DNA of 64,000 bases from Eledone cirrhosa (taxonomy: Eukaryota). The stretch is taken from NCBI GenBank assembly GCA_964016885.1, contig OZ024749.1, forward strand, positions 31,682,001 to 31,746,000. The letters are read 5' to 3'. Position 1 is the first letter of the stretch, and each line of letters begins with the position of its first letter. The notes beneath the pieces are model-generated. The model was given only the letters and a program-made list of their open reading frames with translations, ran no database searches and was not told the DNA's origin. Below are positions 6,863 to 25,791 of the stretch, in pieces. Made by a program: the position numbers and the translations under genes.

Positions 6863-6930
6863 ATTTTATTGTGCGCATTTCGAAAACAACATCAACCTGG
6901 GACAAAAATTGTGTTCTCATCAGATAAAAT
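6863..6930 (-). ncRNA. Type I HHR fold, cleavage triplet mutated (ACA)
   Basis: AUUUUAU-CUGAUGA-GAA c ACAA..UUGU u UUC-GAAA-U gcgc A CA-AUAAAAU; 7-bp stem I. Confidence 0.65.
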
Positions 6931-7032
6931 AAGGTAACATGATATGAGGCCTAAAAACACTTATCAACAAGAAAATGTCCAATCTACATATGACAGAAAT
7001 ATAAGAGTAAGATAAACATATATATATATATA

Positions 7033-7130
7033 CAAGATGTCCCAAAAATTAAATACACACTTCAACAGCATTCTAACAGATATTGCCTATACAGGTAATC
7101 AAAGTGTGTATACATTTTTAGGATACCCTA
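7033..7130. mobile_element. Tc1/mariner-type MITE (copy 2)
   Basis: Same sequence as 2762-2862. Confidence 0.75.
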
Positions 7131-7247
7131 TATATATATATATATATATATATATATATATATATATATATATATATATATATATATATATATATATATA
7201 TATATACGATATTAGCAAATGGAAACTATATTTATAAAACCATATTT

Positions 7248-7310
7248 ATTTCATTATACATATTTCAAGGACACCAAGTTAAATTATGGTGTGCTTTCAT
7301 CAGATAAAAT
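7248..7310 (-). ncRNA. Type I HHR, intact core (family B)
   Basis: AUUUUAU-CUGAUGA-AAG c ACACCA..UGGUGU c CUU-GAAA-U augu A UA-AUGAAAU. Confidence 0.75.
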
Positions 7311-7461
7311 ATAATATAGATCAGTTTTATAAATAAATATTGACATACCCTTAAAGAATGCAACCATTACTGTTGGAAGCTCCCGGATATATATATATAT
7401 ATATATATATATATATATATATATATATTTAAAAGAATAGAGGTGTAACACACGAGTTGTG

Positions 7462-7924
7462 ATATATTAGTAAAAGGAAAAGAAAATGCTGACAAATTGT
7501 TCCCAGTGAAAAATAGTTTAATTAGGAATAAGTAAAAATTAGTAATAAGTATTGGTTAGTATTTAGTTTTAGTTTTAAATTTTTACTGGTTGCGCATTTC
7601 TTATGCTTTTCAAAAATAATTTTGAGATAGAGCGCCCGTGATGTTTGCTGGTGATGATGGTGGTGGTGGTGATGATGGTGGTGGTGGTGATGGTGGAGGT
7701 GATTGAGGTGGTGATGATGATGAACAAAGTGATTTAGAGCAAACATCACGGGCGCTCTATCTCAAAATTATTTTTGAAAAGCATTAGAAATGCGCAACCG
7801 GTAAAGACTTAAAACTAAAACTGAATACTAACCAATACTATTACTAATTTTTACTTATTCCTAATTAAACTATTTTTCACTGGGAAAAATTCGTCAGCAT
7901 TTTCTTTTCCTTTTACTAATATAT
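7462..7924. mobile_element. Fold-back element with ~187-bp arms and degenerate U3-A8 HHR in each arm
   Basis: Arms 7462-7648 / 7739-7924; UUGAAAA-GCAUU aga AAUGC-GCAA-CCGGUA at 7774-7803. Confidence 0.7.
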
Positions 7925-8046
7925 ATATATATATATATATGTGTGTGTATATATATATCAACTCACCTTTAGCAAATACCCTAATCTAATCGCTAACCTG
8001 TTCCCATGACTTCTGCCAAACAAACCGATACACATATAGAGAGAGT

Positions 8047-8465
8047 GATAGATAGATAGATAGATAGATAGATAGATAGATAGATAGATAGATAGATAGA
8101 TAGATAGATACCTTTATTAGCCACAAGGGCATACAACAAATGGTACATAGCAAGATGTGACGGCGGAGGCTTTAGATAAAAATCGTACAAACTTTACCAT
8201 TAATAAATAACAATAAACTATATATAAAATAAAATAACAATCGAAATCCCCAATGGAGGGGAACGTTACTGCAGGGTTGTTTTACACCCCGTAGATAGAA
8301 CAACCATCAACACCTGGAGCACGTTTTGTAGGTGTTCCCTTCTTCCCTCTTTCTTTTCCTCAACATACAGGTTTATATACAGAGAAGATCCATTCACTCA
8401 GGCCATTTTCGCCACATTCACCCGATAGATAGATAATGGAGTAAATCTTTTTGATTTAATCCCTT
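8047..8465 (-). mobile_element. 3' end of L1/Tx1-like LINE with (CTAT)n tail
   Basis: Minus strand reads ..VNVAKMA.. C-terminal remnant, UTR, AATAAA, then (TATC)n; clade assignment from memory of octopus LINEs. Confidence 0.45.
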
Positions 8466-22064: not shown

Positions 22065-22940
22065 GGATTATACCTGTAATTCAAAGACCCAGCCCAGCCT
22101 CCTTTTTATATATTGTGCCAAACTAATTATACCTGTAAATCAAAAGTCCAGCTTTGTCATTTATTATGTCACACGTATTACACCTCTTATTCAAAGCTCC
22201 AGTCCCCTTGTCATATATTATATCATACAGTCTCTACCTGTAATTTAAACGTCTAATGTTACATATTGTGCCACACTTACTTTACCTGTAATTCCCCTCC
22301 ACTGTTTTCATTTACTGTGTCACATTATCTCTACCTGTGACTCAAACGTACAATGTTGTCATATATTGTGTCACACTGATCTACCTGTGATTCAAACCAT
22401 TTACTCTGCCACACTAATTATACCTGTAACTCAAAAGCCTACCTTGTCATATTATGTGTCACAATGCCTCTCCCTGTAATTCAAAGTCCCAACCTCTATG
22501 TCATTCACTGTATCAGACTAATTATAACTGTAACTCAAAGGACCACCTTGTCATATAATGTGTCACACTGCCTCTACCTATAATTCAAAGTTCCAATCTC
22601 CTTGTCATTTACTGTGTCACACTAATTATTCCTGCATTTCATAGGTACAATGTTGTCATTTACTCTCACACACAACCTCTACCTAATTCAGAGGACCAGC
22701 TTGCTATATAATATGTCACATTCCTTCTACCTGTAATTCAAAGTTCCAAGCTCCTTGTCATTTACTGTGTCACACTAATTATACCTACATTTTATAGGTA
22801 CAATGTTGTCATATACTGTCACACACAACCTCTACCTGGAATTTCAGAGGCCCAGCTTGCCATATAGTGTGTCACACTTCCTCTACCTGTTATTCAGAGG
22901 CCCAGCGTACTTGTCATATTTTGAGTGACACTGACTCTAC
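22065..22940. repeat. Degenerate ~45-bp minisatellite
   Basis: Recurrent TACCTGTAATTCAAA..TTGTCAT..TGTGTCACACT. Confidence 0.8.
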
Positions 22941-23069
22941 CATCCGAAATATGCAGAAAGCGATGAGACATTTCTGCGCACACGCGTTAAGTATCCGAGC
23001 ATTTCTAACTTGTAGCATTATGTAGAACAAATGTTGTCACGTTGGCAAATCCGGAATACATTTGAGTCC

Positions 23070-24070
23070 ATTGTGAGGTCTATTTTGCCCTCTGTCTATC
23101 TGTTCTATGTCTTCAAACCCCACTGGGGTCAACTTTGCCCTCTGTCTATCTGTGTTGTGACTTCAAACTCCACTGGGGTCAACTTTGCCCTCTGTTTATC
23201 TGTGCTGTGTCTTCAAACCCTACTGTGGTCAACATTGCCCTCTATCTATCTGTGCTGTCTTCAAACTCCACTGGGGTCAACTTTGCCCTCTGTCTATCTG
23301 TTCTATGTCTTCAAACTCCACTGGGGTCAACTTTGCCCTCTGTCTTTATATCTGTTATATGCCTTCAAATCCCACTGTGGTCAAAATTGCCCTCTATCTA
23401 TCTGTGCTGTCTTCAAACCCCACTGGGGTCAACTTTGCCCTCTGTCTATCTGTTCTATGTCTTCAAACCCCACTGGGGTCAGCTATGCTCTCTGTCTATC
23501 TGTGCTGAGAGTTAAAGCCTCACTAAAGTCAACTTTGTCCTCTGTCTATTTGTTCTATGTCTTCAAACTCCACTGGGGTCAACTTTGCCCTCTGTCTATC
23601 TGTTATATGCCTTCAAAGCCCACTGTGGTCAACATTGCCCTCTATCTATCTGTTCTATGTCTTCAAACCCCACTGGAGTCAGCTATGCCCTCTGTCTATC
23701 TGTGCTGAGAGTTAAAGCCTCACTAAAGTCAACTTTGTCCTCTGTATATCTGTTCTATGTCTTCAAACTCCACTGGGGTCAATTTTGCCCTCTGTCTATC
23801 TGTTATATGCCTTCAAATCCCACTGTGGTCAAAATTGCCCTCTATCTATCTGTGCTGTCTTCAAACTCCACTGGCGTCAACTTTGCCCTCTGTCTATCTG
23901 TTCTATGTCTTCAAACCCCACTGGGGTCAGCTATGCCCTCTGTCTATCTGTGCTGAGAGTTAAAGCCTCACTAAAGTCAACTTTGTCCTCTGTCTATCTC
24001 TGCTGAGTGTTAAAAGCCCACTAGAGTCAACTTTGTAACTGTATTTCAAACCTCCACTATTGTCAACCTA
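23070..24070 (+). repeat. ~50-bp minisatellite resembling SINE B-box region
   Basis: Units CTTCAAACCCCACTGGGGTCAACTTTGCCCTCTGTCTATCTGTTCTATGT. Confidence 0.9.
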
Positions 24071-24229
24071 ATAATACATGTTATTCAGTGGCCTAGCGAT
24101 ATCGTATACTGAGTCCAGTTTTGGGATTTATTGTATCTCCCTGGCTGTCCCTTTTATTCAAAGGTGCAGTGTTGTATATACAACAGCACCGTGGTTAAGG
24201 TTGAGAATTATGGTAAATGTAAGGGGGTG

Positions 24230-24690
24230 TCTGTGGATGTTTGTAGATGTGAATGGATGTGTGAGGATGTGTGTGGATGTGTGAGGATGTGTGTGGATGT
24301 GTGTGGAAGTGTGTGGATGTGTGTGGATGTTAATGTATGTGTGTGGATGTATGAGGATGTGTGTGGAGGTGTGTGGATGTGTGTGGATGTGAATGTATGT
24401 GTGTGGATGTGTGAGGATATGTGTGGATGTGTGAGGATGTGTGTGGATGTGTGGAGATGTGAATGAATGTGTGTGGAATTATGTTACGCGTAAGTGGATG
24501 TGTGTATATGCTTGTGTACGTGTGGGGATGATGTGTCTCGATGTGTGTATGTATGTGTTGATGTTTATGGATGCGTGGTGTGGAAACGTGTGGATATGTG
24601 TGTAAGTATCTGGATGTGTGTAGATGTGTATGGATATGTGTGGAAGTATGTGGATATGTGTGGAAGTATGTGAATGGAAGTGTGTGGCTG
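24230..24690. repeat. (GTGTGGATGT)n 10-bp repeat
   Basis: Direct reading. Confidence 0.9.
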
Positions 24691-24954
24691 TGTGTAGAAT
24701 ATTCAGCACAGATACACATAAATCAACTGCAGGGGATCCTTTGATGAAGCAACGGAATGCTCATCGTCGAAACAGATGGAGAATCATTTTTCCTGAGAGG
24801 ATTCATTCAGATTTATTAGAACATCGGATAGAATGCTTTGCTATATACGTTCTGGTTGTCTGCTGCTTGAGTTCAAGCCCGACTAAGACACACTTCGCTA
24901 TTATACTTTCTGGTCCACGCCCTCATATTATTCAACACTGATTTAAATTGTGAT

Positions 24955-25345
24955 TAATATTAACAATTAATAGTATATTTATATTAAGACTTAATAGTTT
25001 TTATATTAACAGTTAATAGTTTATTTATATTAACAATTAATAGTTTATTTATATTAACAATTAATAGTTTATTTAAATTAACAAATGATAGTTTATTTAT
25101 ATTAACAATTAATAGTTTATTTATATTAACACTTAATAGTTTTTTATATTAACAATTAATAGTTTATTTATATTAACAGTTAATAGTTTATTTATATTAA
25201 CAATTAATAGTTTATTTATATTAAGACTTAATAGTTTTTTTATATTAACAATTAATAGTTTATTTATATTAACAATTAATAGTTTATAATAGTTTATTTA
25301 TATTAACATTTAATAGTTTTTATATATTAATACTTAATAGTTTAT
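24955..25345. repeat. 24-bp AT-rich minisatellite
   Basis: Unit ATTAACAATTAATAGTTTATTTAT. Confidence 0.9.
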
Positions 25346-25732
25346 TTCTAATTAAATATGTTACCAGTGAGTTTCAAATAATTTCGAAAATATTAACATT
25401 AGAAATATTTAGGAAAATAACGAAATTACACGTTTCAAAGTCAATGTTTGGAAAGTCATTTAACATATATATGAATAAACTTCATGTAGAGGAACAAATT
25501 AATATTTCAGCACAAGAACTCACAACTATATACATACATACATATATATATATATATATATATATATATACATACATATATATATATATATATATATATA
25601 TATGTATATATATATAAATATATATATATATATATATATATATATATATATATATATATATATATATATATATATATATATATATATAAATGATATTAAA
25701 TAAAAGGGAACTATATTTATAAAGGCATATTT

Positions 25733-25791
25733 ATTCTATTATATATATTTCAAGGGTACCAAAACTTTGGTACGCCCTCATCAGATAAAAT
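25733..25791 (-). ncRNA. Type I HHR, intact core (family B)
   Basis: AUUUUAU-CUGAUGA-GGG c GUACCA..UGGUAC c CUU-GAAA-U auau A UA-AUAGAAU. Confidence 0.75.

What the first reader, a model, noticed from the sequence alone, without database searches (positions are those of the whole stretch)
6863..25791. HHR sub-class with an invariant C.C (C.U) mismatch at base pair 4 of stem II
Seen: seven motifs with different stem II sequences all have 3 bp, then C opposite C (once U), then more pairs: AAG c ACACCA/UGGUGU c CUU (7270), AAG c GUACCAA/UUGGUAC c CUU (8980), GGG or GGA c GUAC/GUAC c UCU (both arms at 20.3-20.5 kb), GGG c GUACCA/UGGUAC c CUU (25760), GGU c ACAGCC/GGCUGU c ACU (17700), GAA c ACAA/UUGU u UUC (6900). 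Most also share AUUUUAU/AUAAAAU stem I and an AUA triplet after a 2-bp stem III with ATAT/GCGC/ATGT loop. Inference: pair covariation around a fixed mismatch suggests a conserved tertiary-contact or protein-binding feature that I do not recognise from described HHR classes.
Basis: partly seen in the sequence, partly recalled or inferred. Interest (0 to 1): 0.7.

Follow-up and report, generated by a model that had tools for sequence, protein, structure and literature searches.

The report
Retrotransposon hammerheads with fixed unpaired cytosine
These are hammerhead (self-cutting RNA) motifs at the ends of a very abundant jumping-gene lineage, and throughout that lineage one cytosine in the ribozyme's second stem stays unpaired and as fixed as the catalytic bases, likely marking a contact point for the element's own protein; cutting and binding are untested.

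Summary
All seven motifs are real. They are 3' ends of Hydra-clade Penelope-like retrotransposons, with at least 68,601 copies in this genome. Only three of the seven are fully intact, and they belong to about five repeat families. 'Invariant C·C' is too narrow: the fixed thing is the 5' cytosine (C10.4, 95.6% of copies), kept unpaired. C·C, C·U and C·A have each amplified. C–G (248), G–C (309) and U10.4 (2,067) occur only as scattered decay, comparable to loss of catalytic C3. Across 19 family representatives the neighbouring pairs swap, pair 4 never pairs, and C10.4 is the only invariant base outside the core and stem III. Families with a linked reverse transcriptase form one clade. Relatives from other animals pair this position (33 of 35 types), as do published tables. 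Likely mechanism, inferred: a base-specific contact in a weak stem II that makes cleavage depend on the element's RT-endonuclease, as reported for one lizard element. Cleavage, binding and expression are not shown. The scan noted this feature before on other pieces of this genome. Verdict: new variant of a known kind.

The parts
6863..6930 (-). Type I hammerhead of a C·U family; C10.4 at 6913, U11.4 at 6885; triplet decayed to ACA (predicted inactive); lies in a ~280-bp PLE 3' fragment flanked by (TA)n
7248..7310 (-). Intact hammerhead; C10.4 at 7293, C11.4 at 7270, AUA site at 7255; ~180-bp PLE 3' fragment between (TA)n tracts
8960..9020 (+). Hammerhead with core change CUGUUGA (predicted inactive); C10.4 at 8977, C11.4 at 8998
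8801..8884 (-). Inverted second arm of the 8967 insertion; it begins at the predicted cleavage position (1 nt ambiguity)
   Evidence: sequence
17684..17733 (+). Hammerhead of the GGU-C family, 5'-truncated inside the core by (TA)n; C10.4 at 17692, C11.4 at 17711
18463..18520 (+). 3' tail fragment of the same element group, truncated within stem III, no stem II
20303..20355 (-). Intact hammerhead, left arm of an inverted PLE insertion; C10.4 at 20338, C11.4 at 20325
20490..20542 (+). Right arm of the same insertion, with the longer 3' tail; one stem I mismatch; C10.4 at 20507, C11.4 at 20520
25733..25791 (-). Intact hammerhead of a high-copy family; C10.4 at 25774, C11.4 at 25755, AUA site at 25740

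Best explanation
These are type I hammerheads in the terminal repeat of one clade of Hydra-type Penelope-like retrotransposons, and C10.4 stays unpaired and as fixed as the catalytic bases, likely because it is a base-specific contact, most likely for the element's own RT-endonuclease. Shown: the element type, the monophyly of the four family groups that could be linked to an RT, the constraint pattern (C fixed, partner C/U/A, neighbours covarying), a weak stem II base (pair 1 is G-C in only 4 of 19 representatives; the mismatch costs about 6 kcal/mol by folding calculation) and a palindromic stem III. Follows from anatomy: copies that span the cleavage site were reverse-transcribed from RNA whose 3' hammerhead was still uncut, so cleavage must be slow or conditional. 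Inferred: the naked RNA folds the core poorly; protein bound near the flipped-out C stabilises it; and two copies pair through the 8-nt palindrome to cut at AUA, trimming or clearing transcripts at a set step.
For: C10.4 in 65,607 of 68,601 copies. U10.4 in 2,067, scattered over all families and mostly in CpG context (35 of the first 50 rows, by eye), against 830 for core C3>U. C-G 248 and G-C 309, no amplified subfamily in the 100 rows listed for each. C·A 2,870, of which 73 of 100 listed rows are one subfamily and 10 another. In 19 representatives pair 3 has 11 two-sided changes and 0 breaks, pair 4 is unpaired 19 of 19, and 15 columns are invariant: 14 core/stem III plus C10.4. All 12 class members found in 300 kb taken by position have C10.4, including a family outside the training set. 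RTs of these families are only about 41-62% identical between family groups and form one side of a branch, 100/96. Relatives pair position 4 in 33 of 35 types but fix G10.3 in 33 of 35, so a base-specific site at this height of stem II looks general. PMC11167929 (passages and section 3 part 2): a lizard PLE hammerhead cleaves only with the element's protein, whose binding region is hypothesised to lie in 172 nt starting at stem II.
Against: No cleavage, binding or expression data for these RNAs. One origin only, so the many copies are not independent. 'Never G' rests on few events: only two transversions at 11.4 are seen among amplified lineages, both to A. No test separates a protein contact from an RNA tertiary contact. 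In PMC11167929 catalytic mutants did not affect insertion in vitro, no RNA ends mapped to the cleavage site, and that element is from another clade. The GGU-C and UGU-C families could not be linked to an ORF and are not in the tree.
Confidence: 0.42

Rival explanations
1. RNA-only tertiary contact: the unpaired C10.4 docks on stem I, the A-rich strand behind it, or the partner ribozyme of the dimer, and replaces the loop 1/loop 2 contact that a long stem II cannot make; it would speed cleavage.
For: The break sits about where loop 2 starts in canonical type I hammerheads (own knowledge of the 4-bp stem II). Stem I continues past bulges or internal loops in several families. Pair 7 is A-U in 15 of 19, a further sequence bias near the site.
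Against: No invariant partner base outside the core in the 19-row alignment, nor, by eye, in 30-45 nt of flank. Stem I sequence and bulge position differ between families.
Confidence: 0.25
2. Pure thermodynamic brake: any mismatch at pair 4 weakens stem II enough to keep the template uncut until it is copied; the base identity does not matter.
For: Closing the pair would add 0.9-6.7 kcal/mol (median 5.8) in 19 copies. The partner base is free among C, U and A. The AUA site and weak pair 1 point the same way.
Against: U10.4 arises most often (CpG decay) and would leave a mismatch in C·C and C·U families, yet shows no amplified subfamily in 100 listed rows, while 10.1-10.3 and 11.4 changed repeatedly.
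Confidence: 0.18
3. Frozen accident: one ancestral G>C change at 11.4 of a C-G pair (common in relatives) was never repaired, and C10.4 persisted by chance, or because C·C escapes repair in DNA hairpins.
For: Single origin. C-G is the commonest pair 4 in relatives (11 of 35). Few independent lineages.
Against: Over RT divergence of 40-55% every other stem II pair was rebuilt by compensatory change, while one mutation would close this one. C·A and C·U families also persist, so escape from repair does not explain them.
Confidence: 0.12
4. DNA- or coding-level constraint (promoter or endonuclease site in the terminal repeat, or a small ORF from the AUG in the core) fixes the C.
For: PLE terminal repeats hold promoters (PMC6765202 passages).
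Against: Bases on both sides of the C vary freely while keeping pairs. Some families have CUGAAGA and no AUG. The main ORF starts about 270 nt downstream, and the core AUG reading stops within about 16 codons in the three families I read by eye.
Confidence: 0.03

Closest known systems
Hammerheads of Hydra-clade Penelope-like elements (Craig et al. 2021, PMC8557442; read: passages, section 11, supplement File S1 Hydra sheet and File S2 table)
   Same: Type I hammerhead near the 3' end, no recognisable loop-loop contact, palindromic stem III, (TA)n insertion; linked ORF with RW, DKT and CxCX5C motifs and C-terminal endonuclease.
   Different: In the 26 Hydra rows of File S2 none shows an internal mismatch at pair 4 (by eye; one 3-bp hairpin has no pair 4). 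They use G16.2 with a 3-4 bp stem III; here the site is AUA with a 2-bp stem III, and the 3' UTR is long (0.7-1.9 kb).
PLE min-HHR and small-palindromic-helix-III variants (Cervera & de la Peña 2014, PMC4209133; read: main text parts 1-2 of 4, supplement parts 1-2 of 3)
   Same: Long helix II, short helix III with palindromic loop, dimer-type design, low activity reported in vitro; D. virilis has a bulge in helix II.
   Different: Their consensus has an extra base after A9 and G10.1-C11.1; here there is no extra base and pair 1 is mostly G-U or A-U. Of 56 rows in Fig. S3, two show a mismatch at pair 4 (U·U in Clonorchis 2, C·A in S. purpuratus 1), single examples and not described as a feature.
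Protein-assisted hammerhead of the Poseidon element PAc (Frangieh et al. 2024, PMC11167929; read: passages and section 3 part 2)
   Same: Hammerhead in the terminal repeat, copied intact during insertion, with a tail on one arm only.
   Different: Other clade; ORF starts at stem II there and about 270 nt downstream here; no unpaired C mentioned in the parts read.
Axolotl retrozyme HHR_Amex2 (PMC7229834; passages)
   Same: Family-wide mismatch that weakens helix II.
   Different: [quoted passage not shown]

Membership tests
Type I hammerhead ribozyme | Core CUGANGA ... GAAA ... NUH | tested here: met
   Invariant in 19 representatives; intact in 4 of 7 window copies
Type I hammerhead ribozyme | Three helices, open end in helix I, supported by covariation | tested here: met
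   86% of cells paired, 12 pairs with two-sided change; RNAalifold recovers stems I and II. Stem III pairs never vary, so they carry no covariation signal
Type I hammerhead ribozyme | G10.1-C11.1 and loop 1/loop 2 tertiary motif of canonical type I | tested here: not met
   Pair 1 is G-C in 4 of 19; stem II is long with a variable loop. No Rfam hammerhead model hit two intact copies at E<=10
Type I hammerhead ribozyme | Site-specific self-cleavage | not testable with these tools
   No assay; the junction survey was inconclusive
PLE dimer-type hammerheads (short stem III) | 1-2 bp stem III with palindromic loop | tested here: met
   Loops ATAT, GCGC, ACGT, GATC and wobble variants ATGT, ACGC, ATGC, GTAT in 20 representatives
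Penelope-like element, Hydra clade | Single ORF, RT then C-terminal GIY-YIG-type endonuclease, upstream of the hammerhead | tested here: met
   821-codon open frame 1,067 bp upstream in L170; ORF remnants at consistent distances for four family groups. Pfam gave no hit, so domains are read from motifs and homologues
Penelope-like element, Hydra clade | RWK, DKT and CxCX5C motifs | tested here: met
   RW(T/I), DKT and CxCX5C in L170-L172 against the description; K of RWK is replaced
Penelope-like element, Hydra clade | pLTR/tandem and inverted 5'-truncated arms, tail on one arm, (TA)n targets | tested here: met
   L171, L172, L275 and window 20.3-20.7 kb
Penelope-like element, Hydra clade | Placement among the published Hydra reference proteins in a tree | not tested
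   Reference sequences were read in the supplement but not put into the tree; the outgroup was database homologues
Non-LTR retrozyme | Short non-coding tandem repeats each with a hammerhead | tested here: not met
   Copies are dispersed, single or inverted, and continue upstream into PLE UTR and ORF

The most novel reading that the evidence does not exclude
C10.4 is the handle by which the element's telomerase-like RT-endonuclease switches on its own ribozyme: a protein-gated hammerhead whose recognition site moved from G10.3 (other Hydra elements) to an extruded C10.4 in this lineage.
Probability: 0.3. Interest if true: 0.7.

Novelty: new variant of a known kind. Interest (0 to 1): 0.42.

Why it matters
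Why Penelope-like elements keep slow, often protein-dependent hammerheads is open. This lineage points to a single non-catalytic base under core-level constraint, with intact full-length ORFs at hand. One-base changes can therefore separate catalysis from recognition in a reconstituted system. It also shows that descriptors demanding a fully paired stem II or G10.1-C11.1 miss about 10^5 motifs in one genome (12 per 300 kb sampled).

Tried and rejected
Rfam scans of the window and of two intact copies gave no hammerhead hit ([best 150 of 492 rows seen], 83, 84). No RNA holder listed; the three coded runs are contigs of unknown kind and added nothing. Pfam found no family for the ORFs. The first endonuclease family I followed (L061-L090) has a different hammerhead and is the sister group, not the carrier. 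My first guess, Neptune-type, was dropped on the motifs. One search was badly designed (short loops only) and is not used. A shifted register (A9-U11.1 with C10.4 bulged) fits only the GGG family and is contradicted by covariation at pairs 2-3. An inhibitory hairpin G8-C10.4 fails in CUGAAGA families. Junction test for cleavage in vivo: 175 copies of one family lack A17. Of 30 loci, 13 are point changes, 7 three-base deletions, 1 an insertion and 9 (8 places) junctions at the site. There was no control for neighbouring positions, so this is inconclusive. The first metagenome scan found nothing. Literature: no description of the mismatch in searches. Lünse et al. 2017 (short-stem-III PLE hammerheads) was not held and could contain such variants; figures were not visible in any paper.
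Full report
Observation. The window is AT- and microsatellite-rich animal DNA at G000:C9 of a 3.0-Gb genome; the host was not determined. Six motifs were found by core search with up to one mismatch, and the seventh (17684) by reading the sequence. Each has 3 bp, a C opposite C or U, then 4-7 bp. A model built from 19 family representatives finds exactly these seven in the window. Three are fully intact; four carry a core, triplet or stem I lesion or are truncated.

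What they are. The 25784 copy has 1,239 first-look candidates in the genome; many copies lie as inverted pairs in (TA)n. Fetching DNA between distant inverted pairs gave an intact 821-codon frame 1,067 bp upstream of a C·U hammerhead (L170), and ORF remnants at consistent distances upstream of the GUACC, GCAUACC, GGACGUAC and GAAC families. The protein has RW, DKT and CxCX5C motifs and a C-terminal endonuclease, matching the Hydra clade as described in PMC8557442. L171 and L172 show the layout: terminal repeat with hammerhead, about 270 nt, ORF, long UTR, second repeat. The window copies are 5'-truncated 3' ends of such elements. The lead to the Hydra clade came from an earlier scan note and was then checked here.

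How fixed is the mismatch? A pattern that leaves stem II free has 68,601 matches (control 5). It covers only families with the U-rich stem I. C stands at 10.4 in 65,607. The opposite base varies by family: the C·U family is 43 of the first 100 rows (by eye); 33 C·C and 29 C·U among 62 well-paired copies in loci L101-L180, which were not chosen for this position; and 2,870 C·A, mostly one amplified subfamily (73 of 100 rows) with a second smaller one (10 of 100). Closed pairs are rare and scattered over families: C-G 248, G-C 309, many of the latter one-base deletions. U at 10.4 occurs 2,067 times, scattered and about 70% in CpG context, against 830 for C3>U in the catalytic core. C10.4 is thus lost at roughly the post-insertion decay rate, and I saw no lineage that amplified without it (100 rows listed per search).

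Across families. In 19 representatives, chosen by hand (a few came from loci of the C-requiring search), the invariant columns are the core, stem III and C10.4. Pair 3 is U-A 8, A-U 6, G-C 5 with no break; pairs 5-7 break once each; pair 4 is unpaired in 19 of 19 (relatedness inflates the shuffle statistics). All 12 class members in 300 kb taken by position have C10.4, including a new family with an AUC site.

Origin. RT identity between the family groups is about 41-62%. In a tree of 49 rows (36 of 80 metagenome rows kept after thinning at 70%; L180 and L277 left out) the nine rows from these families form one side of a branch, 100/96. The GGU-C and UGU-C families have no linked ORF and are not in the tree. 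Of 80 related elements from metagenome contigs, 67 have a credible hammerhead after I removed 8 hits as false by eye. Pair 4 is closed in 65 of 67 loci and 33 of 35 distinct types, with all four bases used, while G10.3 is fixed in 33 of 35. Other hammerhead families in the same genome close pair 4, so this is not a genome-wide bias.

Literature. By eye, none of the 26 Hydra rows in File S2 of PMC8557442 has an internal mismatch at pair 4. Two of 56 rows in Fig. S3 of PMC4209133 do, as single examples. Searches found no description. Lünse et al. 2017 could not be read, and figures were not visible, so novelty is provisional.

Mechanism. Shown: weak stem II base, with pair 1 G-C in 4 of 19 and a computed median 5.8 kcal/mol lost to the mismatch, and a palindromic 2-bp stem III of the dimer type. 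By anatomy, copies spanning the site came from uncut RNA, so cleavage is slow or conditional, yet the core is conserved. A mere brake does not explain why the base must be C. An RNA partner was not found. PMC11167929 reports a PLE hammerhead that cleaves only with the element's protein, although its catalysis was dispensable for insertion in vitro. I therefore favour a protein contact in a weak stem (0.42) over an RNA tertiary contact (0.25), a pure brake (0.18), accident (0.12) and a DNA-level role (0.03). Against my reading: one origin, only two transversions at 11.4 among amplified lineages, and no direct data on cleavage or binding; the junction survey was inconclusive.

Verdict. Real, well constrained, clade-specific; a new variant of a known kind with a cheap decisive test. 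Two earlier scan notes on other pieces of this genome reached a similar reading; they are not independent evidence.

Noticed in passing
window 27675(-) and 27771(+): Inverted pair of a different, Hydra-type hammerhead (U·U at pair 1, G10.3, closed C-G pair 4, GAAA tetraloop); the + arm has a changed core. An internal outgroup for the finding.
   Followed up: partly
window 6516(-): Minimal hammerhead of the Cervera type (extra base, GGGC/GCCC stem II, GUC site) with weak stem I.
   Followed up: no
L061-L090, about 700-900 bp after the ORF (e.g. L065, L087): The sister Hydra family carries a hammerhead with a very long stem II, a C·A mismatch at pair 6, and in most copies U in place of core A9.
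   Followed up: partly
L299/L300; G000 C8:59937947, C12:24280116, C13:11451381: Four insertions whose two matches overlap with identical geometry; the one read (L299/L300) is a perfect palindrome centred on the first two bases after the predicted cleavage site. Possible trace of cleaved templates, no control.
   Followed up: partly
L303: An element segment that starts at the predicted cleavage site and runs on through the tail into the 5' UTR of the ORF.
   Followed up: no
L191-L270: Hydra-clade hammerheads of other animals fix Y10.2 (34 of 35) and G10.3 (33 of 35) although any pair would do; not mentioned in the parts of PMC8557442 read.
   Followed up: partly
L043:202-1132: Four hammerheads of another family at 310-bp spacing, a candidate tandem retrozyme.
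   Followed up: no
window 4734-5468, 23077-24035, 42698-43217: Minisatellites of 103, 50 and 129 bp.
   Followed up: no
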